The notes beneath the pieces are model-generated. The model did no database searches, was not told where the DNA came from, and saw nothing but the letters and a program-made list of their open reading frames with translations. Below are positions 1 to 19,976 of a stretch of 20,725 nt of DNA, in pieces (position 1 is the stretch's first letter; each line of letters starts with the position of its first letter). The DNA is taken from the UHGV virus genome UHGV-1517735; one strand, 5' to 3'. Origin of the DNA: a virus. A program made the translations under genes and the position numbers.

Positions 1-48
1 TTAACAGCTAACTCATAGCAAATCATTCCTATTCAGACACTAACTCAA

Positions 49-79
49 CCCTCTGTTTTTACAGAGGGTTTTTGTTTTT
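49..79 (+). terminator. Rho-independent terminator-like hairpin
   Basis: CCCTCTG (49-55) / CAGAGGG (62-68) stem, 6-nt loop, followed by TTTTTGTTTTT. Confidence 0.5.
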
Positions 80-135
80 ATGTATTCATTTCTATTCACT
101 CTATACCATATTTTTCGGCGGTACAGGTGACGGTA

Positions 136-150
136 TTACCTTAAAGGTAT
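136..150. promoter_or_regulatory. Operator-like palindrome TTACC-TTAAA-GGTAT (9/10 to TTACC-N5-GGTAA) upstream of integrase
   Basis: Matches the recurring intergenic palindrome; lies 43 bp upstream of the int start. Confidence 0.4.
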
Positions 151-192
151 ACTCTCATACCGTCATGAAAATGGTTTCTATACGGGTGAATT

Positions 193-1443
193 GTGCTTAC
201 CGATACAAAATTAAAAAACCTCAAGCCGCAGGACAAACTATACAAAGTCTCCGATCGTGACGGGCTGTATGTAGCTGTGCTTACGTCAGGTACGGTCTCG
301 TTTCGCTATGACTACCGTATCAACGGTCGCCGCGAAACACTGGTAATCGGGCAGTATGGGCGTGACGGTATCAGCCTGGCAGAAGCGCGGGAAGAACTGA
401 TTGCTGCAAAGAAGCTGCTTAAAGCAGGCCAGTCACCGGCTGCGGCTAAACGTGACGGTATCAAAAAGATTCGTGGTGCCGAGACGTTTGCGGTACATAC
501 CGACAGTTATATGAAACACGTCATCCTGGCTGACAGTACCCGCGCAATGAAACAGGCGGTGATCGACCGTGACATACTTCCGGTTCTTGGCAATAAAATG
601 ATGGCTGAAATTACCACATCGATGGTTCGTGATTTGTGTGACCGGATTGTCGAACGCGGTGGCCGGGCAACAGCAGTGCAGGCCAGGGAGATCATCAGTA
701 GCGTATACCGTCACGCCAATGACCGTGGTCATGGTTTGTTTAATCCTGCGGCTGACATTAAACCTTCGTCTATCGCCATATTTAAACCACGAGAGCGAAC
801 ACTGACACCAGAAGAAATTGGCCTGTTCTTCCGCACGCTGGATGCCATTGGTGCTATGGGCACTATGAAAATGGCTTTAAAACTGGTGCTTATCACTATG
901 GTTCGTAAGGGCGAATTCACCAATGCAACGTGGGATGAAATAGATTTTAAAAAATGGACATGGACAATTCCTCCAGACCGCATGAAGGGAAGCCGGGCGC
1001 ACGTTATTTACCTGCCTAAACAGGCACAGGATATATTGGTCGGGTTGCAGATGTGCGCTGGTGGAAGTGAATATCTGGTTCCTGGTCGTTACAATTTCCG
1101 GAAGCCATTATCTAATGCCGCGCTGAACTCTCTGATCGACAGAACGGTGAAAATAATAAATGAAGATGGTGAGCATATTCAGGACTTCACTGTACATGAT
1201 ATGCGCCGTACAGCCAGTACGTTGTTGCATGAGGCTGGTTATCCTTCAGACTGGATTGAAAAGGCTCTGGCACATGAGCAGAAAGGTGTGCGCGCCGTAT
1301 ATAACAAAGCGGAATACGCCAGACAGCGCGCCTACATGTTGCAGCAGTGGGCCGATATGATTGATTCATGGATTGACGGGGAGCATACGGATCTGATTCC
1401 GTTCTCCCCGTCGAAGTTTGAGAAGTGGATGGCGGGGGAATAA
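193..1443 (+). CDS. int: Tyrosine site-specific integrase (P4-type, DUF4102-like N-terminal domain)
   Basis: 416-aa ORF, GTG start; N-terminus MLTDTKLKNLKP..DGLY typical of P4-family integrases; C-terminal HDMRRT (HxxR) and VRAVYNKAEY catalytic Tyr region. Confidence 0.93.
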   Translation: MLTDTKLKNLKPQDKLYKVSDRDGLYVAVLTSGTVSFRYDYRINGRRETLVIGQYGRDGISLAEAREELIAAKKLLKAGQSPAAAKRDGIKKIRGAETFAVHTDSYMKHVILADSTRAMKQAVIDRDILPVLGNKMMAEITTSMVRDLCDRIVERGGRATAVQAREIISSVYRHANDRGHGLFNPAADIKPSSIAIFKPRERTLTPEEIGLFFRTLDAIGAMGTMKMALKLVLITMVRKGEFTNATWDEIDFKKWTWTIPPDRMKGSRAHVIYLPKQAQDILVGLQMCAGGSEYLVPGRYNFRKPLSNAALNSLIDRTVKIINEDGEHIQDFTVHDMRRTASTLLHEAGYPSDWIEKALAHEQKGVRAVYNKAEYARQRAYMLQQWADMIDSWIDGEHTDLIPFSPSKFEKWMAGE

Positions 1444-1637
1444 CGTTTAATAGTTCTGCTGATTTTCTTCCATCTCTGCTTCTGCTGCCAGTGATTCAAT
1501 TTTGTTTTCGAATATTGCTGACAGTGTTGCAAATTCAGCATCAGTGACAGCGGGAATTGGAACAAACCTGATCCCGCTGTGTGCAAGCATGTTTGCAGTT
1601 TCAAGGCATTTTCTTAAATCTGCTGGTGATGCCCTGT

Positions 1638-2288
1638 TCATGCAGCACGCTCCCGCCCCTGGTTGTCTGTTGGTGACAGCGGAGCATTGCTGAATGCATT
1701 TGTTAATCCGCCAATATCCAACGCGTATCCAGGGTGTAGTTGCACTGCCGGGTCTTCGCACTGATTACCCCAAACATCGAAGCCATGAGACGTCTGGCGG
1801 GCGAACAGTTCAATGCGAGAAACATCGCCTAATAATTGCACAAGTTTTTCACGAACGATATCTGGCTTTCTTGAATGCTCAAGCCGCGGTGCGGTAAATG
1901 ACTGAACGATCCCTGCATTAATGCGCGTAGGTAGTTTTCCCTTTACCGCAAACAGGCAATCTTCACTATTGGCGCGAGTCATGTGTCCCATACCCATAAC
2001 CAGTTTATCTGGTTGTCGACTACCACATTTTATCCACGTGAAGCCCTTCATCGTCATCAGACGGAATCCCCAGGCTTCAACAACTTTTAGTGCTTCGAGT
2101 GGTTGTGTTGGCACCCACCACATGGCCAACAGACAGTTTTCATCGGCCAAATCCCACACAGGAAGGCGGCAGATATCCAGCACACTCATAACCGGATATT
2201 TAAAACCGGCACCGCGATTACCATCTGCGGCTTTGTCCCGGTATACCCAGGGTGGATCTGCATAGATTAGTGTGTATTTCTTAGTCAT
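1638..2288 (-). CDS. MT-A70 family N6-adenine DNA methyltransferase (orphan, no cognate nuclease seen)
   Basis: 216-aa ORF; IYADPPW catalytic motif near N-terminus and EHSRKP motif; start overlaps upstream gene stop. Confidence 0.85.
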   Translation of the reverse strand: MTKKYTLIYADPPWVYRDKAADGNRGAGFKYPVMSVLDICRLPVWDLADENCLLAMWWVPTQPLEALKVVEAWGFRLMTMKGFTWIKCGSRQPDKLVMGMGHMTRANSEDCLFAVKGKLPTRINAGIVQSFTAPRLEHSRKPDIVREKLVQLLGDVSRIELFARQTSHGFDVWGNQCEDPAVQLHPGYALDIGGLTNAFSNAPLSPTDNQGRERAA

Positions 2289-2580
2289 AAACCACCCCGC
2301 AACATCCTATACCGCTATAGTCTCCACGGCGAAGGCCGTTACCTTTTGTGATACATTGGTCCCTGCGAACCGCGATCCTTGCACGCTCAACATCACCAGA
2401 AGCAACATCCATACACTGAAGCCAAAGGTGAGCGGCAATGCGGAACTGCCCTTTTTTCTCTCTTTCAATCGCGCGTTTTTCGATCTCTATCGCCGCAGGA
2501 GTAACGGCGACAATCTTTGACGGACTGCGCATTGAAACCTTATTCATGTGATATTTTTCAAGTCGGCTTAACTTTCTCAC
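2281..2580 (-). CDS. Hypothetical protein (99 aa)
   Basis: ORF with GTG start preceded by AGAGAGGG; stop overlaps the methyltransferase start by 8 nt; no recognisable domain. Confidence 0.5.
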   Translation of the reverse strand: MRKLSRLEKYHMNKVSMRSPSKIVAVTPAAIEIEKRAIEREKKGQFRIAAHLWLQCMDVASGDVERARIAVRRDQCITKGNGLRRGDYSGIGCCGVVYD

Positions 2581-5157: not shown

Positions 5158-5234
5158 TTACCGTTGAGGTAATAATTATGCGTATTTGGTTTGATGTCAA
5201 TAGATATGAGTTAAAAAAATTACCCATTAGGTAA
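5158..5234 (-). promoter_or_regulatory. PL-like leftward early promoter with two flanking operators
   Basis: Operators TTACC-GTTGA-GGTAA (5158-5172) and TTACC-CATTA-GGTAA (5220-5234); minus-strand -35 TTGACA at 5195-5200; AT-rich -10 region around 5172-5180. Confidence 0.55.
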
Positions 5235-5243
5235 TAGTATAGG

Positions 5244-5270
5244 CAATAAAAAAGCCGCCAGAAGGCGGCT
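5244..5270 (-). terminator. Rho-independent terminator downstream of the repressor gene
   Basis: AGCCGCC / GGCGGCT stem with AGAA loop, followed on the minus strand by TTTTTTATT. Confidence 0.6.
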
Positions 5271-5291
5271 TACTTACTGAAAAATATGATT

Positions 5292-5876
5292 TTATTGTTT
5301 GTTTTTTTCGTTCTGGTTGATGACAAATTCAATGTAACTTTCGATCTTTGCTTTCTCAGTTTCGGGTAACAATGCGTAGCGCGAGCGGTCATAGTTGATG
5401 GTCGCAGGGTCGTGCGGGTGAATCAGTAATTCATAGCCGTGACGCCCGAATGCGGATGCAACATTCTCCAGGGTGGAAATGGAAACGCTGACCTCATTGT
5501 TTAACAGGCGGCTGATTGTCACCTGGGCGACGCCGGATGCGCGGTGAAGTTTTCCCTGTGTTGAAAGGTCGCGGCTTTCGCTCATCCAGCGTTCCAGGTT
5601 GTGAGCCGCCAGCTGACCTATATCGCTCGGGCCGACAGGCTGAAAACCTTCCTGAGAAAGCGAGCGATCGATATCAAGCCAGTTACGTGGTTTATTGGCG
5701 GCAGCTTCAATTTTTCGCGCAACCTGGTCGCCGATAACCTTCTTGCCAAGAGCCCAGCGGTTTACCAGATTTGCCTGAGTTCCAAGTTTTTCTGCCATCC
5801 GCGTCTGAACACCATTGAATTCACGGTCGATCAAGTCGTTGAGATTTTGCCTGCGGACGTCCTGGATACTTTTCAT
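5292..5876 (-). CDS. CI-like prophage repressor with two HTH domains and no LexA-like peptidase domain
   Basis: 194-aa ORF divergent from the Cro-like gene; N-terminal HTH (QTRMAEKLGTQANLVNRWALGKK) and a second HTH-like segment (SGVAQVTISRLLNNEVSVSISTLENVASAFG); no S24 peptidase signature. Confidence 0.8.
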   Translation of the reverse strand: MKSIQDVRRQNLNDLIDREFNGVQTRMAEKLGTQANLVNRWALGKKVIGDQVARKIEAAANKPRNWLDIDRSLSQEGFQPVGPSDIGQLAAHNLERWMSESRDLSTQGKLHRASGVAQVTISRLLNNEVSVSISTLENVASAFGRHGYELLIHPHDPATINYDRSRYALLPETEKAKIESYIEFVINQNEKNKQ

Positions 5877-5931: not shown

Positions 5932-6005
5932 TTACCCAACAGGTAAATGCACCTCATAGGTAACTATCCTTGATTTTTGTTACCTTATGGGTGAATATTT
6001 ATTAT
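5932..6005. promoter_or_regulatory. OR-like operator cluster (three sites) with PR-like promoter
   Basis: TTACC-CAACA-GGTAA (5932-5946), GCACC-TCATA-GGTAA (5949-5963), TTACC-TTATG-GGTGA (5980-5994); -35 TTGTTA (5977-5982), 17-bp spacer, -10 TATTAT (6000-6005) so the third operator sits inside the promoter. Confidence 0.6.
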
Positions 6006-6030: not shown

Positions 6031-6261
6031 ATGAGCGATAACGGACATTTCGATTTCAAAAAGCACTGGCTTGCACTTACTCCGGATGAGCGTGAAGCCT
6101 TCGCACAGGAAGCCGGAACGACGAGTCACTATATCCAGACTCACTTAACAGGTAAGCGCAAAATGCCAGGTAAAGTATTGATGAATGGGCTTTTTAAAGC
6201 CTGTAAAACAAGACAATGGCTGCGCTCAAAAGCAGAACTGGCATACTTCTTCTACTCATGA
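6031..6261 (+). CDS. Cro-like HTH regulator
   Basis: 76-aa ORF divergent from the repressor; HTH-like segment EAFAQEAGTTSHYIQTHLTGKRKMP. Confidence 0.65.
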   Translation: MSDNGHFDFKKHWLALTPDEREAFAQEAGTTSHYIQTHLTGKRKMPGKVLMNGLFKACKTRQWLRSKAELAYFFYS

Positions 6262-6316: not shown

Positions 6317-6331
6317 GTACCTCAAAGGTAA
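6317..6331. promoter_or_regulatory. Operator-like palindrome GTACC-TCAAA-GGTAA (9/10)
   Basis: Immediately downstream of the post-cro terminator, upstream of the replication genes. Confidence 0.4.
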
Positions 6332-8212: not shown

Positions 8213-8289
8213 TTACCTGTTAGGTAACAAAATATTATAAACTCTATTGATTTCATGTCTTATGTGGTTTTTAATTACCTCAGAGGTAA
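8213..8289 (+). promoter_or_regulatory. Operator-flanked promoter for the downstream operon
   Basis: TTACC-TGTTA-GGTAA (8213-8227) and TTACC-TCAGA-GGTAA (8275-8289); -35 TTGATT (8247-8252), 17-bp spacer, -10 TTTAAT (8270-8275); same layout as the PL-like promoter. Confidence 0.55.
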
Positions 8290-8292
8290 ATC

Positions 8293-8637
8293 ATGAGAAA
8301 ACAGATACAGGCTCTTGGTCGACTCAAAACAGGCCAGATGAACAAAACTGAATCTGCGTATTGCCAGCACCTTGAGCTGCGTAAACGTGCAGGGGAAATC
8401 GCCTGGTATCGATTCGAGGGTATCAAGCTGCGGTTAGCTGACAACACGTTCTATACGCCAGATTTCGCTGTGATGCTCGCCACCGGAGAGATGGAACTGC
8501 ACGAAGTGAAAGGTTTCTGGACCGACGACGCCAGGGTGAAAACCAAAGTCGCCGCAGATCAGTATCCGTTCCGAATCATCGGGGTAACGGTTAAACCAAA
8601 GAAAGCAGGTGGTGGCTGGAACATCGAAGAGTTCTGA
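8293..8637 (+). CDS. DUF1064-like phage protein (putative PD-(D/E)XK-fold nuclease/resolvase)
   Basis: 114-aa ORF; YTPDFAV...ELHEVKG...KTKVAADQYP pattern as recalled for DUF1064; RBS GAGGT. Confidence 0.7.
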   Translation: MRKQIQALGRLKTGQMNKTESAYCQHLELRKRAGEIAWYRFEGIKLRLADNTFYTPDFAVMLATGEMELHEVKGFWTDDARVKTKVAADQYPFRIIGVTVKPKKAGGGWNIEEF

Positions 8638-8698: not shown

Positions 8699-9262
8699 AT
8701 GGAAAGTAATATCAAAGGGTTAGTTGCCGCCGGGCATGAGATGGCTTCGGAACTGAAAGCAGAATGTGGTGCCGTTGATATGCGCAGTGTGGCAAAGCTG
8801 ATCAGCGATTTGGCAACGCAACTGGAAGTGCAACTGGTGCGTGCTAATGCGCTGGCCGAAGACCACCAGAGAGCGACTGAGTCAATTAAGCAGGCTGATT
8901 CGGCTGTTAAGTTGGCGCACGAGAAGTTTTCGGTGCTGGCGGCGGAGAATGCGGGGCTGAAGTCTGGCGCAATGGACGAAATCAAGGTTATCAACCGTGG
9001 AGGGCAGGCATATTGCGTAAAAGATGGAGTGCAAGTTAATCCCATGTATGCAAGAGGGTGGAATGACTATCGCGCAAAGTCTCTGCAATCAGACACCCCG
9101 GCCACCGACGCATTCCTTGCTGAAATTGAACGCAAAGCAATCCGCAAGTTCATTAACAGCATTGAACACATCCTGCGTGACAAGTTGTCACCGTATGACA
9201 CCGAAGAGATGCTTGAAGCTATGCGTATTTTTCTGGAAGAACAGGGAGGTGAGCAAAAATGA
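8699..9262 (+). CDS. Hypothetical protein (187 aa), first gene of accessory operon
   Basis: RBS GCGAGGG before ATG 8699; coiled-coil-like N-terminal half; no recognisable domain. Confidence 0.7.
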   Translation: MESNIKGLVAAGHEMASELKAECGAVDMRSVAKLISDLATQLEVQLVRANALAEDHQRATESIKQADSAVKLAHEKFSVLAAENAGLKSGAMDEIKVINRGGQAYCVKDGVQVNPMYARGWNDYRAKSLQSDTPATDAFLAEIERKAIRKFINSIEHILRDKLSPYDTEEMLEAMRIFLEEQGGEQK

Positions 9263-9564
9263 CGATCACAAAACAACGGGTAGAAGAAATCATATCCCGC
9301 ATTGAAATGTATGGGCATGGCGCAGGGTATACCGCCGAAGAGGTTTATGACCTGGCTGTACTGGCGCTGAATTTATCAAATATCGCAAACCTGAAGCGAT
9401 ACGAGCTTGATATGGGTGGTTGTGACTCGTGCGGTCAGGATTGTGGCGCTGACATGACTGAAGATTCTGATGGCGATTATGTCCTGTTTGATGACGTAGT
9501 TAAGTTGTTTGAGTTTGATACATTCGAAAGCCCAGCAAAGGAGGCAACCAGTGAGCGAAATTAA
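9259..9564 (+). CDS. Hypothetical acidic protein (101 aa) with CDSCGQDC motif
   Basis: ATG overlaps upstream stop (ATGA); no recognisable domain. Confidence 0.6.
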   Translation: MTITKQRVEEIISRIEMYGHGAGYTAEEVYDLAVLALNLSNIANLKRYELDMGGCDSCGQDCGADMTEDSDGDYVLFDDVVKLFEFDTFESPAKEATSERN

Positions 9565-10249
9565 TTACCAGGCACTGCGTGAGGCGGCGGAACGTGCAAT
9601 TCCGGCAATGGAACGCCTGTTAATGTTGCTAGTTGATGATGCTCTGATAAGTGAACAGGAACTTAAAGATTACGGTGTGGATATTGATGCGCTCAACGCC
9701 TTCAAATTTCTGGCCGGACCAGAAACCGTGCTGGCGCTTCTGGATGAACGGGAAAGAAACCAGCAATACATCAAACGCCGCGACCAGGAGAACGAGGAGA
9801 TTGCGCTAACGGTAGGGAAACTGCGTGTTGAGCTTGAAGCAGCAAAATCAAAACTCAACGAGCAGCGTGAATATTACGAGGGAGTAATCGCGGATGGAAG
9901 TAAGCGTATTGCTGAACTGGAGAAAAGCGAAGAGCAACTCATCAATGAGCGTGACCATGCTGAGTCTGCTTTAGATGATATGTACTTTGCAGCAACCGGT
10001 AACAGGCCGGAGTGGAGCAACTGGTTCGGCTTTTCAGATGCTGTCGATGCCGTGGTTGACAGAATTGCTGATTTAGAAGCTAAACAGTCATCGCCAGTAG
10101 TGCCGGAAGGACTGGTTAAAGCAGTGCGCTTCTATGAGCAGGTTAAGCGTGAAAATCCGCCAGTCGAAACCGGAGCATGGAAAGACGCTGTTGACTGGGT
10201 GCTCAAAGAGGCCTGCCAGGTTGTAAACATTGGTACCAAAGGAGATTGA
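9551..10249 (+). CDS. Hypothetical coiled-coil protein (232 aa)
   Basis: GTG at 9551 preceded by AAGGAGG; long heptad-like central region; C-terminal PVVPE module shared with the next gene. Confidence 0.6.
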   Translation: MSEINYQALREAAERAIPAMERLLMLLVDDALISEQELKDYGVDIDALNAFKFLAGPETVLALLDERERNQQYIKRRDQENEEIALTVGKLRVELEAAKSKLNEQREYYEGVIADGSKRIAELEKSEEQLINERDHAESALDDMYFAATGNRPEWSNWFGFSDAVDAVVDRIADLEAKQSSPVVPEGLVKAVRFYEQVKRENPPVETGAWKDAVDWVLKEACQVVNIGTKGD

Positions 10250-10250
10250 T

Positions 10251-10631
10251 ATGAGCACTTTTACCGACAAAGAACTGATTAAAGAAATCAAAGAGCGCAT
10301 AGGCAGTCTGGACGTGCGAGACGATATTGAGCGCCGTGCTTATGAAATTGCTCTGGCATCACTGGAAGCAGAGCCGGTGGCGTGGCTTCATTCAGACAAT
10401 GGCTTAGGTATTCCGGCAATAACGAGGAGTAAAAACATTGCTGACAGTTGGTTATCAAAGGGTTGGTATGTTCAGCCGCTATATATAGCCAAGCCAGTGC
10501 CAGTAGTACCGGAAGAAAAACCAATGCCGAACCCTCTTAGCATGTACGCGGTTGATGCTGTTGCCGCTATTGCAGAGGTGAGAGGCTGGAACGCCTGCCG
10601 TGCCGTCATGCTTCAGGGAGATAAATCATGA
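10251..10631 (+). CDS. Hypothetical protein (126 aa), shares C-terminal PVVPE module with upstream gene
   Basis: ATG 10251 preceded by AAGGAG; AKPVPVVPEE parallels AKQSSPVVPEG in the upstream protein. Confidence 0.65.
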   Translation: MSTFTDKELIKEIKERIGSLDVRDDIERRAYEIALASLEAEPVAWLHSDNGLGIPAITRSKNIADSWLSKGWYVQPLYIAKPVPVVPEEKPMPNPLSMYAVDAVAAIAEVRGWNACRAVMLQGDKS

Positions 10632-11245
10632 TTAATCGTACCAAGCTGGAGCACATCCTCGAATATGCCAGACAGCAGAGGCGCTTTGGTCAGCATTGCA
10701 AAATTCCGCCAGGAGATATGGTTGAAATCGTGGAAATGGCCATGCGTAAGGCTGGCAACCCTCATGTAACCCCGGCTCGCCTGCCTGGTGGTTTCACCAT
10801 TGAGGATGCGAAGGCGTTACATGAAGACCTGGTACGCAGCCACATAAGCCAGGCTTTAAGTGGCGAAAATATGAAAAAGAACGATCGCGATGCTGATTTG
10901 CGCTGGATTCATGGCGTAATAGTTCAGGCAGCGTGGTTTGTAAAAGCATCACTGGAGCAAAATGCGCTATCGGGCAACTCTCCGGTAACTCCGGATGGTT
11001 GGGTTATAGTGCCGAAGAAACTAACCGCTGAGAACGGCGCTAAGGGTGTGCTATCCGGTGAATTTTCAGAAACTACGTTTATAAGCTGCCCGGAATGCTT
11101 TGGCGATGATGATTGCGATACCTGTGACGGGAGCGGACGAATTGAAATTAAAGTACCAGTCACGTGGACGACCATAAAATCCATCTGGGATAAAGGTATT
11201 GCGCATTTTGCAGCAAAACCGCCGCAGGAGGTTAACCGTGGCTAA
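10628..11245 (+). CDS. Hypothetical protein with DnaJ-type zinc-finger motif (205 aa)
   Basis: CPECFGDDDCDTCDGSG fits the CxxCxG...CxxCxGxG pattern of DnaJ cysteine-rich domains; start overlaps upstream stop. Confidence 0.7.
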   Translation: MINRTKLEHILEYARQQRRFGQHCKIPPGDMVEIVEMAMRKAGNPHVTPARLPGGFTIEDAKALHEDLVRSHISQALSGENMKKNDRDADLRWIHGVIVQAAWFVKASLEQNALSGNSPVTPDGWVIVPKKLTAENGAKGVLSGEFSETTFISCPECFGDDDCDTCDGSGRIEIKVPVTWTTIKSIWDKGIAHFAAKPPQEVNRG

Positions 11246-11519
11246 CCTGCAACTTGCCGTCAAAGGTGAATACTTCGATGCCATGATTCGCGGGGAGAAA
11301 ACGGAAGAGTATCGCCTGTGTAATGACTACTGGAAAAAGCGCCTCGTTAACCGTAAGCATGACCGCCTGATTATCACAAAGGGATATCCGAAGCGCGACG
11401 ATTCCAGCCGCAGAATAGACGTCCCGTATGAAGGGTATGAAATCAAGACAATCACACATCCGCACTTCGGCGATAAACCGGTAAAGGTGTTCGCGATAAA
11501 GGTAAATATTGATGGCTAA
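11238..11519 (+). CDS. ASCH-domain-like protein (93 aa)
   Basis: GTG at 11238 preceded by AGGAGG; LQLAVKGEYFDAMIRGEKTEEYR resembles the ASCH N-terminal strand-turn motif. Confidence 0.6.
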   Translation: MANLQLAVKGEYFDAMIRGEKTEEYRLCNDYWKKRLVNRKHDRLIITKGYPKRDDSSRRIDVPYEGYEIKTITHPHFGDKPVKVFAIKVNIDG

Positions 11520-11850
11520 ATCAGCAGCAGAGCGCAAAGCCGCTCAGAGAGCCAGACAAGCTGCATCTGGTGTGCGTAAACTGGAGATTGTGCTTGATGC
11601 TCAGGAAATTGAAATGCTGGAGCGTAACTGTGCCACGCGTCGCCCCGGGCGTGCGCCTTACGAATTTGGTGAGTATATAGCGTTACTGATCCGCCAGGAT
11701 GATGCACGCGTGCGCGGGCGTATAAAATCGATCAGCAGAAAACGTTGCGGTAAGTGCGGAGAGAGAGTTCCAGTTAATTCATGCCCGTGTAATGGTGACT
11801 CGCAATGCTGGGTGACTAAAGGCTGGCATGAAACGAAATTAATAGTGTGA
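11512..11850 (+). CDS. Cys-rich zinc-finger protein (112 aa), candidate late-gene regulator
   Basis: Basic N-terminal segment; C-terminal CGKCG...CPCNGDSQC; last gene before the terminator and operators upstream of terminase. Confidence 0.6.
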   Translation: MAKSAAERKAAQRARQAASGVRKLEIVLDAQEIEMLERNCATRRPGRAPYEFGEYIALLIRQDDARVRGRIKSISRKRCGKCGERVPVNSCPCNGDSQCWVTKGWHETKLIV

Positions 11851-11934: not shown

Positions 11935-11967
11935 ATTACCACAACGGTAACTATTACCACGGTGGTT
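11935..11967. promoter_or_regulatory. Two operator-like palindromes immediately upstream of the terminase small subunit
   Basis: TTACC-ACAAC-GGTAA (11935-11949) and TTACC-ACGGT-GGTTA (11953-11967), the second abutting the start codon. Confidence 0.5.
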
Positions 11968-12564
11968 ATGATGCCTGCTGAACCTAAAACCTATAAACGC
12001 AAATCAACGCAATTTAAGCCACTAACAGCAATGCAGGAGGCTTATTGCCAGTCATACATCAAAACGCCTGAAAACCAGACTCAGGCAGCGATTAATGCAG
12101 GATTCTCCCCAAATACAGCGGCAGTTAAAGCCAGTGTCATGATGCGCGATGAACGCATTCAAAAACGGATTGCCGAGTTGATGGAGGAGCGCAACAAACG
12201 AATGCGCGTCAGTGCTGATTACGTTCTCATGCGCCTGGTGGAGATCGACCAGATGGACGTGATCGACATCCTCAACGACGATGGGAGCCTTAAGCCAATC
12301 CGCGAGTGGCCGAAAATCTGGCGCACTACGCTTAGTGGCTTTGATCTGTCATCGACCATCATGAACATGAACGAGGATTCGATAGAGACAATCCTCAAAA
12401 AAATTAAATGGCCTGACAAGGTGAAGAACCTCGAACTGATTGGTAAGCACGTCGACGTCAACGCATTCAAAGAACGCCTGGATGTTAATGTGAATGTGAC
12501 AATTGCTGATCGCATAGCAGCAGCCAGGAAGCGACTCAAAGAACGTCAGGATGGCAATCAGTGA
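11968..12564 (+). CDS. Terminase small subunit (start uncertain; upstream in-frame ATGs rejected because they span the terminator)
   Basis: HTH-like segment TQAAINAGFSPNTAAVKASVMMRDERIQKRI typical of small terminase subunits; directly upstream of and overlapping the large subunit. Confidence 0.7.
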   Translation: MMPAEPKTYKRKSTQFKPLTAMQEAYCQSYIKTPENQTQAAINAGFSPNTAAVKASVMMRDERIQKRIAELMEERNKRMRVSADYVLMRLVEIDQMDVIDILNDDGSLKPIREWPKIWRTTLSGFDLSSTIMNMNEDSIETILKKIKWPDKVKNLELIGKHVDVNAFKERLDVNVNVTIADRIAAARKRLKERQDGNQ

Positions 12565-14126: not shown

Positions 14127-14546
14127 TTACTTAATGGCATCAAATCCAGCGTTGATGGCTTCCGCAATATTGATGGCACTTGTTTTATCGAATTGCCTAT
14201 TCTGAATAAGCGCCGCATGCAGGCATTGTAACTTCATGTTGTATAAGTGTTCGCTCATGTAATCATTATCACTTTTTGTTTTAGCGCAAACAGAGCGAGA
14301 AATATCAAACACATCGCCTTTTTCCATTTCAGAACGTTGTGCTGTTATCCAGTCATGGAACGTAACGCTAGTACCATGGTCTTCGCTAAGAGTTAACCCG
14401 GCCAGTCCCTCACTCTGAATTACTTCGTAATGCATTTCATTACCAGCAAAAACGCCATAAAAAATGCAGTCTTCAGCCTGAACGATACGAGAATATTTTA
14501 ATGGCCATTCATTTAGATACTTAGCCAACATATCAATTGTCTTCAT
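14127..14546 (-). CDS. Hypothetical cargo/moron protein (139 aa), opposite strand to flanking late genes
   Basis: ORF with RBS AAGGTGA; AT-rich codon usage unlike neighbours; own terminator; no domain recognised, no predicted TM segment. Confidence 0.7.
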   Translation of the reverse strand: MKTIDMLAKYLNEWPLKYSRIVQAEDCIFYGVFAGNEMHYEVIQSEGLAGLTLSEDHGTSVTFHDWITAQRSEMEKGDVFDISRSVCAKTKSDNDYMSEHLYNMKLQCLHAALIQNRQFDKTSAINIAEAINAGFDAIK

Positions 14547-14552
14547 GATCTC

Positions 14553-14580
14553 ACCTTAAAAAAATGCCCGGCGAACCGGG
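14553..14580 (-). terminator. Terminator-like hairpin immediately upstream of the cargo ORF RBS
   Basis: GCCCGG / CCGGGC stem with TTCG-type loop followed on the minus strand by ATTTTTTT, then AAGGTGAGATC-ATG. Confidence 0.55.
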
Positions 14581-14657
14581 CGAACTGGAAGCAATGAGTT
14601 ATGCCTTCCGTGGTTGTACTGGTTTACAGCATGAAGTCATCGCAATGGCGTCCTGCT

Positions 14658-14701
14658 GTAAAAAGGGCGGTGATAGTTCTTCAAGGGAAACCATCACCGC
14701 C
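14658..14701 (-). terminator. Possible terminator hairpin downstream of the tRNA
   Basis: 9-bp stem GGCGGTGAT / ATCACCGCC with 18-nt loop, followed on the minus strand by CTTTTTA. Confidence 0.35.
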
Positions 14702-14744
14702 AAGCCCCTGGAACTTCTGGCATCACGGTCCTTAGGCGTGATTC

Positions 14745-14821
14745 TGGCGTGGCATGCAGGATTCGAACCTGCGACCAACCGCTTAGAAGGCGGTTGCTCT
14801 GTCCAACTGAGCTAATGCCAC
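14745..14821 (-). tRNA. tRNA-Arg, anticodon UCU (argU-like, phage-borne)
   Basis: 77-nt cloverleaf read on the minus strand: acceptor GTGGCAT/ATGCCAC, D-stem GCTC/GAGC, anticodon stem ACCGC/GCGGT with loop CUUCUAA, T-stem GCAGG/CCTGC with TTCGAAT loop, encoded CCA. Confidence 0.92.
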
Positions 14822-15143: not shown

Positions 15144-15158
15144 TTACCTGAAAGGTAA
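15144..15158. promoter_or_regulatory. Operator-like palindrome TTACC-TGAAA-GGTAA upstream of the head module
   Basis: Perfect match to the recurring palindrome; intergenic. Confidence 0.5.
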
Positions 15159-19141: not shown

Positions 19142-19157
19142 CGCCTGTTATTAACCT

Positions 19158-19177
19158 GTGGGTCGTAACAGACCCAC
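19158..19177 (+). promoter_or_regulatory. Intercistronic stem-loop after the capsid gene (no U-tract)
   Basis: GTGGGTC / GACCCAC stem with 6-nt loop between the capsid stop and the next RBS. Confidence 0.4.
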
Positions 19178-19640: not shown

Positions 19641-19976
19641 ATGTCTGGTGAGAAACCAAGATACCGCGTTCTGCGCCTCTCTCATATCCATAACACACTG
19701 TGGACGGAGGGAGCAGAAATCGAATACGAAGGTGAGCCTGGTAGCGCACTGGAACCTGTTAACGATGCAGCCAGACAGGCAAAAGCAAAAGTTGCAGGAA
19801 AGGTGTCAATGGCAGCAACCAGCACCAAAATCATCAACGATGTGTCAGATGATGGTGAACTGGATAAGCTCCGTGAAGAGTACGAATTGCTCTTTAACGA
19901 GAAGCCACACCATAACGCCAAAGCAGAAACGCTCCGCGAGAAGATCGCAGATAAGCGTAAAGAACTGGGCGTGTAA
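19641..19976 (+). CDS. Hypothetical head-module protein (111 aa)
   Basis: ATG 19641 preceded by AAGGTGA; followed by a terminator-like hairpin. Confidence 0.55.
   Translation: MSGEKPRYRVLRLSHIHNTLWTEGAEIEYEGEPGSALEPVNDAARQAKAKVAGKVSMAATSTKIINDVSDDGELDKLREEYELLFNEKPHHNAKAETLREKIADKRKELGV

What the first reader, a model, noticed from the sequence alone, without database searches (positions are those of the whole stretch)
5292..5876. CI-like repressor has two HTH domains and no autocleavage domain
The 194-aa protein shows an N-terminal Cro/CI-type HTH and a second HTH-like segment but nothing resembling the LexA-type S24 peptidase (no Ala-Gly/Ser...Lys pattern). Induction is then unlikely to be RecA-mediated self-cleavage and would need an antirepressor or another signal. 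No antirepressor and no LexA box (CTGT-N8-ACAG) was found in the window. The palindromic operators with 5-bp spacers fit a dimeric HTH binder.
Basis: partly seen in the sequence, partly recalled or inferred. Interest (0 to 1): 0.5.

Follow-up and report, generated by a model that had tools for sequence, protein, structure and literature searches.

The report
Known antirepressor-controlled prophage repressor (SPC32H type)

Summary
The 194-aa ORF at 5292..5876 (-) is real. It has an N-terminal Cro/CI-type HTH and a second HTH_3-like segment, and it has no S24 peptidase. It matches PDB 5D50/5D4Z along its whole length (E 4e-42). Those entries are Rep of Salmonella phage SPC32H, solved with its antirepressor Ant. 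The protein is 100% identical to ORF21 of E. coli phage vB_EcoP_ZX5, which was shown by overexpression to shut down lytic genes.

In the solved homologue, as a later paper summarises it, the second HTH-like segment is a dimerisation domain. A third C-terminal module makes tetramers and binds Ant.

The window is the left half of a Uetakevirus prophage inserted after guaA. It contains no Ant homologue and no credible LexA box. The single literal CTGT-N8-ACAG, at 19156, lies inside a GC-rich hairpin.

In all four relatives I examined, an 85-86-aa ant gene sits upstream of the tailspike gene with a near-consensus LexA box (ZX5, SPC32H, the E22 prophage). That position would be about 12 kb beyond the window's end.

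TTACC-N5-GGTAA operators are strongly enriched and lie at the same positions as in SPC32H.

Interest is low.

The parts
5292..5876 (-). rep: 194-aa lysogeny repressor, including its stop codon
   Evidence: ORF. Full-length match to PDB 5D50_A Rep of SPC32H, E 4e-42. 100% identical to ZX5 ORF21, the phiV10 repressor and others.
5661..5876 (-). Residues 1-72: N-terminal Cro/CI-type HTH DNA-binding domain. Helices 24-31 and 35-43; recognition helix NLVNRW.
   Evidence: Pfam YdaS_toxin/DUF739 at 20-61. PHROG repressor families at 1-76. AF2 helices. N36, L37, R40 and W41 are invariant in alignment A2, which includes SPC32H Rep; N36, R40 and W41 are also invariant across the 28 family members of A1. 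53% identical to SPC32H Rep.
5421..5612 (-). Residues 89-152: second HTH_3-like domain. It corresponds to the middle dimerisation domain (MDD) of SPC32H Rep.
   Evidence: Pfam HTH_3 at 106-147, E 1.2e-9. Match to 5D4Z, Rep 92-198, E 4e-20. Foldseek TM 0.73 normalised to the target. Domain role taken from PMC9986798.
5295..5420 (-). Residues 153-194: C-terminal module corresponding to the CAD/TetDloop of SPC32H Rep (tetramerisation and Ant binding)
   Evidence: Aligned with 5D50/5D4Z to residue 190. 47% identical to SPC32H. Conserved Y162, D163, L170, P171, K175, F184. Role taken from PMC9986798.
5932..5946 (.). Operator, exact TTACC-caaca-GGTAA, in the rep/cro intergenic region
   Evidence: Aligned column for column with the SPC32H site at 34390.
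5949..5963 (.). Operator, 2 mismatches: GCACC-tcata-GGTAA
   Evidence: Aligned with the SPC32H exact site at 34407.
5980..5994 (.). Operator, 1 mismatch: TTACC-ttatg-GGTGA. It overlaps the spacer and -10 of the rightward promoter.
   Evidence: Aligned with the SPC32H site at 34437. Promoter scan.
5970..6005 (+). Candidate rightward promoter for the cro-like gene. Conserved TTGATT -35 at 5970-5975; the scan also finds TTGTTA-17-TATTAT at 5977-6005.
   Evidence: TTGATT is conserved with SPC32H. Consensus match only; function is inferred.
6031..6261 (+). Divergent cro-like gene, 76 aa
   Evidence: phrog_35 transcriptional repressor, E 5.6e-13. Syntenic with SPC32H_042.
5252..5271 (-). Intrinsic terminator-like hairpin just after the rep stop codon
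5220..5234 (.). Operator, exact, upstream of the -35 of the leftward early promoter
   Evidence: Conserved with SPC32H 33666.
5172..5200 (-). Candidate leftward early promoter, TTGACA-17-AATTAT (10 of 12)
   Evidence: The TTGACA block is conserved with SPC32H. Consensus match only; function is inferred.
5158..5172 (.). Operator, exact, abutting the -10 of the leftward promoter and 62 bp from the 5220 site

Best explanation
The ORF is the immunity (lysogeny) repressor of an epsilon15-like (Uetakevirus) prophage inserted after guaA. It is a member of the SPC32H Rep family.

Shown here:
- It is colinear with the solved SPC32H Rep and identical to the ZX5 repressor.
- It lacks any S24 peptidase.
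- It sits back to back with a cro-like gene.
- TTACC-N5-GGTAA palindromes lie at the same positions as in SPC32H: three between rep and cro, overlapping the rightward promoter, and two 62 bp apart bracketing the leftward early promoter.

Inferred from the homologue:
- The N-terminal HTH reads the TTACC half-sites.
- The second HTH-like domain dimerises the protein.
- The C-terminal module joins two dimers into the tetramer that is the DNA-binding form.
- On DNA damage, LexA cleavage derepresses a small ant gene. In relatives this gene lies divergent from the tailspike gene, about 12 kb past the end of this window.
- Tetrameric Ant binds the C-terminal modules of two Rep dimers and breaks up the tetramer. 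Rep leaves the operators and the lytic genes switch on.
- Rep itself is not cleaved.
For: Sequence and fold:
- PDB sequence search: 5D50_A 'Repressor', E 4e-42, residues 1-190; 5D4Z, E 4e-20, residues 89-190.
- Foldseek top hits are 5D50/5D4Z.
- Rep is 100% identical in ZX5, phiV10 and 11 further phage records, and 42% identical to SPC32H and epsilon15 Rep.

Experiments on the identical ZX5 protein:
- Overexpression abolished free phage and cut endolysin mRNA by 99.99% (PMC9782041).
- Mitomycin C raised the lysogen's free-phage titre from 1e7 to 1e9.

Published domain roles and mechanism.

No self-cleavage machinery: no S24 in Pfam and an all-helical model.

Operators: enriched in the window, in SPC32H (18 against 0.66 expected) and in ZX5 (14 against 0.55). 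They align site for site with SPC32H.

Ant with a LexA box in relatives:
- SPC32H ant is annotated at 19676..19936 with a 25.4-bit box.
- ZX5 has a homologue at 2089..2346 with a 28.6-bit box.
- The E22 prophage has a homologue at 34269..34526 with TACTGTATATTTATACAGT.
- 16 of the 17 phage records with at least 95% identical Rep have an Ant hit.
- rep is in 537 of 5426 complete E. coli genomes and the ant region is in 529.
Against: - The ant gene and its LexA box are not in the window, so for this particular genome the partner is assumed, not seen.
- Rep is only 42% identical to the solved protein. The C-terminal module is 47% identical and the middle domain 34%. Oligomeric state and Ant binding are therefore extrapolated.
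- The primary SPC32H papers (PMC4983836, PMC3807360) are not in the library. Their content is cited through later papers and, for LexA control of ant, partly from my memory of the abstracts.
- The ZX5 paper tested a different, BRO-N-type antirepressor (ORF4), not the small Ant.
- The rep and ant genome counts were not matched genome by genome.
Confidence: 0.9

Rival explanations
1. Rep is a lambda CI/LexA-like repressor that is inactivated by RecA-stimulated self-cleavage through a cryptic peptidase.
For: Its position and divergent orientation against cro resemble a lambdoid cI. A ZX5 lysogen is mitomycin C inducible.
Against: - No Peptidase_S24 hit at E <= 10.
- No Ala-Gly or Cys-Gly dipeptide in the sequence.
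- The model is all-helical, whereas S24 is a beta fold.
- Fold matches are Rep and XRE HTH proteins only.
- The whole length is accounted for by the solved three-module Rep.
Confidence: 0.02
2. The second HTH-like domain (residues 89-152) is a working second DNA-binding domain, so Rep reads a bipartite or second operator motif.
For: - This domain is the stronger Pfam HTH_3 match (E 1.2e-9).
- It keeps the canonical XRE motif G-x-x-Q-x-T-I-S-R, with Q118 and R123 invariant in 28 homologues.
- Its structural neighbours are DNA-binding HTH proteins such as SinR, NHTF and C.AhdI.
Against: - The solved homologue's middle domain is described as a dimerisation domain, with the DNA-binding domain at the N-terminus.
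- This domain is the less conserved one against SPC32H: 34% overall and 26% across the HTH itself, against 53% for the N-terminal domain. The operator half-sites, by contrast, are identical in the two phages.
- No second conserved motif is visible next to the operators.
Confidence: 0.07
3. In this particular prophage, induction runs through another antirepressor or not through SOS at all. Candidates are a BRO-N/Ant-domain fusion like ZX5 ORF4, or an Ant supplied in trans by another prophage, because the small ant has been lost.
For: - The ant locus is outside the window.
- ZX5 carries a second, BRO-N-type antirepressor whose C-terminus is 38% identical to Ant. Its overexpression reduced lysogens.
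- rep is found in slightly more E. coli genomes (537) than the ant region (529).
- Antirepressor cross-talk between prophages is documented in Salmonella.
Against: - 16 of 17 phage records with this Rep have the small Ant.
- The genome counts are nearly equal, including 3 plasmid places each.
- The mechanism would still be Ant-type antirepression of the same Rep.
Confidence: 0.08
4. The protein is not the immunity repressor. It is some other XRE-family regulator, for example a toxin-antitoxin antidote, as one record annotates it.
For: One phage record labels the identical protein 'plasmid maintenance system antidote protein VapI' (H8). There is a weak Pfam hit to YdaS_toxin.
Against: - No adjacent toxin gene.
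- It has a divergent cro-like partner and shared operators.
- There is experimental repression by the identical ZX5 protein.
- It is homologous to a solved repressor.
Confidence: 0.01

Closest known systems
Rep of Salmonella phage SPC32H (PDB 5D50 Rep-Ant complex; 5D4Z Rep 92-198), with the near-identical repressors of SPN1S and SPN9TCW and the closely related one of epsilon15
   Same: - Colinear over the whole length (E 4e-42).
- Same three modules and same genus (Uetakevirus).
- Same divergent cro-like partner.
- Same TTACC-N5-GGTAA operators at the same positions.
- The partner Ant is 88% identical in close relatives of this prophage.
   Different: Only 42% amino-acid identity (N-terminal domain 53%, middle domain 34%, C-terminal module 47%). 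Operator spacers contain G/C here and are A/T-only in SPC32H. The host is E. coli and the insertion site is guaA.
ORF21 repressor of Escherichia phage vB_EcoP_ZX5 (MW722083; PMC9782041); also phiV10 and TL-2011b
   Same: 100% identical to ZX5 and phiV10 and 98.5% to TL-2011b. The flanking DNA is 98-99% identical, and the guaA integration site is the same.
   Different: None for the protein. The window's prophage differs from ZX5 only in mosaic segments at about 8857-9817, 10255-11511 and 14130-14548. The ZX5 paper did not connect ORF21 to SPC32H Rep or to the small LexA-controlled Ant.
Antirepressor-induced repressors of coliphage 186 (CI/Tum) and of the Gifsy and Fels-2 prophages
   Same: Same logic: a non-cleavable repressor, with a LexA-controlled antirepressor linking SOS to induction.
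   Different: I did not test for homology to these repressors or antirepressors. From my memory of the Kim & Ryu 2013 abstract, Ant of SPC32H was described as structurally distinct from them. The Rep architecture of HTH plus HTH-like dimeriser plus TetDloop is specific to this family.
Rco of Bacillus plasmid pLS20 (with its antirepressor Rap)
   Same: N-terminal XRE DNA-binding domain plus a C-terminal p53-like tetramerisation domain (TetDloop), and repression relieved by a protein partner.
   Different: Rco lacks the middle HTH-like dimerisation domain. It regulates plasmid conjugation, not a phage switch.
Lambda CI, P22 C2 and LexA (HTH plus S24 self-cleaving repressors)
   Same: The N-terminal Cro/CI-type HTH, the position in the genome, and the divergent arrangement against cro.
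   Different: No S24 peptidase and no cleavage site. The C-terminal oligomerisation part is built from an HTH-like domain plus a small tetramerisation module.

Membership tests
SPC32H/epsilon15-type Rep (antirepressor-controlled Uetakevirus repressor) | Full-length, colinear sequence homology to the solved Rep | tested here: met
   phmmer against PDB: 5D50_A, E 4e-42, query 1-190 against chain 2-197. tblastn to SPC32H rep: 41.8% identity over 98% of the query, E 2e-42.
SPC32H/epsilon15-type Rep (antirepressor-controlled Uetakevirus repressor) | N-terminal XRE/Cro-CI HTH DNA-binding domain | tested here: met
   Pfam and PHROG hits at 1-76. HTH helices 24-31 and 35-43 in the model. Recognition-helix residues N36, L37, R40 and W41 are invariant in the alignment that includes SPC32H Rep.
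SPC32H/epsilon15-type Rep (antirepressor-controlled Uetakevirus repressor) | Middle HTH-like dimerisation domain plus C-terminal tetramerisation and Ant-binding module | tested here: met
   Homology to 5D4Z (Rep 92-198), E 4e-20. Foldseek TM 0.73 normalised to the target. The domain definitions come from PMC9986798. The actual oligomeric state cannot be tested here.
SPC32H/epsilon15-type Rep (antirepressor-controlled Uetakevirus repressor) | Arrays of TTACC-N5-GGTAA operators at the rep/cro switch and the leftward early promoter | tested here: met
   20 sites against 5.6 expected; 0 of 100 shuffles reach 20. Site-for-site alignment with SPC32H. Binding itself was not tested.
SPC32H/epsilon15-type Rep (antirepressor-controlled Uetakevirus repressor) | Cognate small Ant gene whose promoter carries a LexA box | tested here: inconclusive
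   Absent from the window, which ends about 12 kb before the expected position. Present, with 25-29-bit LexA boxes, in SPC32H and ZX5, and with TACTGTATATTTATACAGT in the E22 prophage. 16 of 17 phage records with this Rep have an Ant hit.
SPC32H/epsilon15-type Rep (antirepressor-controlled Uetakevirus repressor) | Rep is not cleaved during SOS and is released from DNA by Ant binding | not testable with these tools
   Needs a Western blot after mitomycin C, Rep-Ant pull-down and EMSA. Published only for SPC32H.
LexA / lambda CI-type self-cleaving repressors | C-terminal Peptidase_S24 domain with a Ser-Lys dyad | tested here: not met
   No S24 hit at E <= 10. All-helical model. No S24 structure among the 50 Foldseek rows listed.
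LexA / lambda CI-type self-cleaving repressors | Ala-Gly or Cys-Gly cleavage site in the linker | tested here: not met
   The translated sequence contains neither dipeptide.
Uetakevirus (epsilon15-like) prophage at guaA | Gene order and nucleotide identity with known members, and insertion after guaA | tested here: met
   98-99% nucleotide identity to ZX5, TL-2011b and phiV10. Window bases 1-190 match the DNA directly after guaA in E. coli E22. The guaA attB is described for ZX5.

The most novel reading that the evidence does not exclude
The most novel reading not excluded concerns how far Rep acts. Rep may not be a local switch protein only. It may be a genome-wide clamp whose tetramers bridge operator pairs set exactly 62 bp apart around promoters. 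Such pairs occur at 5158/5220 and 8213/8275, with the same spacing in SPC32H and ZX5. Rep may also occupy single sites in front of int, terS, the portal operon and ant itself. In addition, the well-conserved second HTH-like domain may keep some DNA-contacting role. A related possibility follows from Ant being 88% identical across phages whose Reps are only 42% identical: Ant may act as a cross-inducing signal between different Uetakevirus prophages.
Probability: 0.2. Interest if true: 0.35.

Novelty: already known. Interest (0 to 1): 0.1.

Why it matters
It matters little as a discovery. The identical protein has been tested as the repressor of phage ZX5, and the family's structure and antirepressor mechanism were published for SPC32H in 2013 and 2016.

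Practical value:
- The gene is annotated only as 'helix-turn-helix domain-containing protein', and the small ant as 'hypothetical protein', in the E. coli genome records listed here. rep occurs in 537 and the ant region in 529 of 5426 complete genomes. Transferring the Rep/Ant annotation would correctly mark these prophages as SOS-inducible through LexA.
- The ZX5 study did not recognise the small LexA-controlled Ant next to the antirepressor it tested.

Tried and rejected
- **Primary papers.** I tried to read the SPC32H papers (DOIs and PMC4983836, PMC3807360) and the epsilon15 genome paper (PMC2698709). None is held. The mechanism is therefore cited through later papers and through PDB entry titles.
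- **Antirepressor in the window.** tblastn with SPC32H Ant gave only noise. PHROG scans of 28 ORFs gave no antirepressor family.
- **LexA box in the window.** The literal pattern gives one exact hit, at 19156. I rejected it because it is the stem of a GC-rich hairpin and falls below the 6-bit listing threshold on the matrix. No window site exceeds 10.2 bits. The matrix was built from 19 E. coli SOS boxes recalled from memory, so the scores are only indicative. It does pick out exactly one strong site in each of ZX5 and SPC32H, directly upstream of ant.
- **Source genome.** The best E. coli genome covers 91% of the window, so the window's own ant locus could not be read. I did not run collection scans, because a 10-kb flank would not bridge the distance from the window's end to ant.
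- **rep's own promoter.** I found no convincing sigma-70 match upstream of rep on the minus strand (and reading the sequence by eye). It is left unassigned.
- **C-terminal module.** The monomer AlphaFold model predicts it as helix with low confidence (pLDDT 54-76). It cannot show the strand-containing tetramer fold described for the crystal structure.

Full report
**1. The observation**

The window has an ATG-initiated ORF of 194 codons on the minus strand at 5292..5876.

- Pfam gives a significant HTH_3 match (E 1.2e-9, 38.5 bits against a cut-off of 23, two stretches, best at residues 106-147). HTH_26, LacI and HTH_31 cover the same stretch.
- Pfam gives only sub-threshold Cro/CI-type matches at residues 20-61 (YdaS_toxin 3e-4, DUF739 0.13).
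- PHROG repressor families cover residues 1-76 (E 3e-11 and 4e-10), and phrog_8 covers nearly the whole protein (E 4.5e-27).
- No Peptidase_S24 match appears even at E <= 10. The sequence has no Ala-Gly or Cys-Gly dipeptide.

**2. What the element is**

The DNA around the gene is 98-99% identical to E. coli Uetakevirus (epsilon15-like) phages: vB_EcoP_ZX5, TL-2011b, phiV10 and others. The protein is 100% identical in 13 phage records. It is 75-78% identical in Enterobacter phages, 45% in Klebsiella phages, and 42% in Salmonella phages epsilon15, SPN1S and SPC32H.

The first ~190 bases of the window match the DNA that directly follows guaA in E. coli E22. An integrase gene comes next. ZX5 is reported to integrate at the 3' end of guaA. 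The window is therefore the left half of a prophage: attL, int, the early-left genes (recET), rep, cro, replication, terminase, portal and capsid.

**3. Match to a solved, characterised protein**

A sequence search of the PDB gives a full-length match to 5D50 chain A, 'Repressor' (E 4e-42, residues 1-190). It also matches 5D4Z (E 4e-20, residues 89-190). The Foldseek output titles these entries 'Crystal structure of Rep-Ant complex from Salmonella-temperate phage' and 'Crystal structure of Repressor from Salmonella-temperate phage'.

An AlphaFold model built from 28 homologues (pLDDT 78) is all-helical. Two four-to-five-helix bundles are separated by a disordered linker at 74-83. Its structural neighbours are 5D50/5D4Z and then XRE-type HTH proteins (NHTF, SinR, C.AhdI, the P22 C2 N-terminal domain, Stl). 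No S24 fold appears among the rows listed.

The primary papers are not in the library. Later papers summarise them as follows.
- Rep of SPC32H has an N-terminal DNA-binding domain, a middle dimerisation domain (MDD), and a C-terminal module (CAD, a p53-like 'TetDloop'). The C-terminal module makes tetramers and binds the antirepressor Ant.
- Rep binds DNA as a tetramer. The two DNA-binding domains that read one palindrome are proposed to come from different dimers.
- Tetrameric Ant binds two Rep dimers and breaks the tetramer.
- In several Salmonella prophages, with this system cited among them, LexA self-cleavage leads to synthesis of the antirepressor.

From my memory of the Kim & Ryu 2013 abstract: Rep is not cleaved on SOS induction, and a point mutation in the LexA box of the ant promoter makes the phage virulent.

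Mapping this onto the window protein gives:
- residues 1-72: DNA-binding domain;
- residues 89-152: the 'second HTH', equivalent to the dimerisation domain;

**4. Direct experimental evidence on the identical protein**

In ZX5, overexpressing ORF21, which is identical to the window protein, eliminated free phage. It reduced endolysin and holin transcripts by 99.99% and 99.97%. A ZX5 lysogen released about 1e7 PFU/ml spontaneously and 1e9 after mitomycin C. A BRO-N-type 'anti-repressor' (ORF4) reduced the number of lysogens when overexpressed.

**5. The missing antirepressor and LexA box**

In SPC32H, ant is annotated at 19676..19936, divergent from the tailspike gene. Its upstream region contains CACTGTATAAACATACAGTA.

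- tblastn with Ant finds nothing in the window. PHROG scans of 28 window ORFs find no antirepressor family.
- Ant homologues 87-88% identical to SPC32H Ant are present in 16 of the 17 phage records whose Rep is at least 95% identical to the window's.
- In ZX5 the homologue (2089..2346, annotated 'hypothetical protein') is preceded by TACTGTATAAATATACAGT.
- In the E22 prophage (Rep 193/194 identical) it lies at 34269..34526, preceded by TACTGTATATTTATACAGT. That corresponds to about 12 kb beyond the end of the window.

A LexA weight matrix built from 19 boxes recalled from memory scores these sites at 28.6 bits (ZX5) and 25.4 bits (SPC32H). Each is the only strong site in its genome. The best site in the window scores 10.2 bits, below the weakest training box at 13.1.

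The one literal CTGT-N8-ACAG in the window (19156..19171) is part of the hairpin GTGGGTC-gtaaca-GACCCAC after the capsid gene. It is not a LexA site.

In complete E. coli genomes, rep occurs in 537 of 5426 and the ant-plus-promoter segment in 529 of 5426. Each has three places on plasmids. This is consistent with the two travelling together, but I did not match the lists genome by genome.

**6. Operators and switch anatomy**

TTACC-N5-GGTAA is strongly over-represented in the window: 20 sites with up to 2 mismatches against 5.6 expected, and 7 exact. The same holds in SPC32H (18 sites against 0.66 expected at up to 1 mismatch) and in ZX5 (14 against 0.55).

- Three sites lie between rep and cro: 5932, 5949 and 5980. 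The last overlaps the spacer and -10 of a rightward promoter whose -35, TTGATT, is conserved with SPC32H.
- After the rep terminator (5252..5271), two exact sites 62 bp apart (5220 and 5158) bracket a good leftward promoter, TTGACA-17-AATTAT.
- The sites align column for column with those of SPC32H, although the surrounding DNA has diverged.
- The recognition-helix residues N36, L37, R40 and W41 are invariant in the alignment that includes SPC32H Rep; N36, R40 and W41 are also invariant across the 28 family members. This fits the unchanged half-site.
- Paired sites at a fixed 62 bp, about six helical turns, fit a tetramer that holds two palindromes. That is an inference.

**7. Mechanism, and how much of it is shown**

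Shown here:
- identity and homology of the protein;
- absence of S24;
- operator arrays and their positions relative to promoter-like sequences;
- ant with a LexA box in relatives;
- absence of both from the window.

Taken from the literature:
- repression by the identical protein;
- mitomycin C inducibility;
- tetrameric DNA binding and disassembly by Ant in the 42%-identical homologue.

Inferred:
- the source genome carries ant;
- this Rep forms the same tetramer and binds this Ant;
- the two promoter assignments.

**8. Rivals**

- RecA-stimulated self-cleavage is essentially excluded by the lack of any peptidase fold.
- A genuine DNA-binding role for the second HTH-like domain cannot be excluded. 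It keeps the canonical Q-x-T-I-S-R motif, with Q118 and R123 invariant. However, it is the less conserved domain, while the operators are unchanged between phages. The solved homologue uses it for dimerisation.
- Loss of ant, or use of another Ant-domain protein in this particular prophage, is possible but would not change the kind of mechanism.

**9. Comparison and novelty**

This is a member of the SPC32H/epsilon15 Rep family and is identical to the ZX5 and phiV10 repressor. It works like the other LexA-antirepressor switches (186 Tum, Gifsy and Fels-2) and shares the TetDloop idea with pLS20 Rco.

Nothing about the finding is new. The residual points of mild interest are listed under the things noticed in passing:
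- the genome-wide distribution and fixed spacing of the operators;
- the contrast between a highly conserved Ant and a divergent Rep;
- the Ant-domain fusion in ZX5 ORF4;
- the poor database annotation of both genes.

Noticed in passing
window 8213..8227 and 8275..8289; also 136..150, 6317..6331, 11936..11950, 11954..11968, 15144..15158: Rep-type operators (TTACC-N5-GGTAA) occur well outside the rep/cro switch. A second pair exactly 62 bp apart brackets a promoter-like TTGATT in front of the DUF1064/resolvase-like gene at 8293. Single or tandem sites precede int, ORF 6410, terS and the small ORF ahead of the portal gene. SPC32H and ZX5 have the same sites at the same places, including one upstream of ant. 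This suggests Rep represses most transcription units directly.
   Followed up: partly
L002 (ZX5) 2089..2346 and L001 (SPC32H) 19676..19936, compared with window 5292..5876: Ant is 88% identical between the E. coli and Salmonella phages, while their Reps are only 42% identical (N-terminal domain 53%, middle domain 34%, C-terminal module 47%). Either the Ant-binding surface is a small conserved patch or the late-region module carrying ant has been exchanged. Cross-induction between these prophages looks possible.
   Followed up: partly
L002 (ZX5) 1078..1773 (-): The BRO-N 'anti-repressor' ORF4 tested in the ZX5 paper carries a C-terminal domain 38% identical to the small SPC32H-type Ant. It lies downstream of the small ant on the same strand. 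Several E. coli phage records show 2-3 Ant-like places. The E22 prophage lacks this gene.
   Followed up: partly
window 14745..14821 (-): A tRNA-Arg (anticodon TCT) lies between the terminase and portal genes, as in SPC32H and the E22 prophage. It overlaps the mechanical ORF 14564..14815, which matches a PHROG family and is annotated as a CDS in ZX5. That CDS may be a mis-call.
   Followed up: no
window 1..192: The first ~190 bases are host DNA directly after the guaA stop codon, including the guaA terminator hairpin (CCCTCTGTTTTTACAGAGGG). They place the prophage's left junction at the window's edge.
   Followed up: partly
window 19158..19177: A GC-rich hairpin, GTGGGTC-gtaaca-GACCCAC, lies between the major capsid gene and the next head gene. 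It contains the only literal CTGT-N8-ACAG of the window. It may be an attenuator or an RNA-stability element.
   Followed up: no
window 8857..9817, 10255..11511, 14130..14548: These segments are not shared with ZX5 at the nucleotide level (mosaic nin-like region and a 139-aa minus-strand ORF after the terminase). All their ORFs fall in PHROG families of unknown function, apart from 11509..11850 (phrog_536, transcriptional regulator), of which only the first bases lie in a segment not shared with ZX5.
   Followed up: no
E. coli complete genomes: About 10% of complete E. coli genomes carry this rep gene (537 of 5426), and nearly as many carry the ant promoter region (529). In the rows listed, the two genes are annotated only as 'helix-turn-helix domain-containing protein' and 'hypothetical protein'.
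   Followed up: partly
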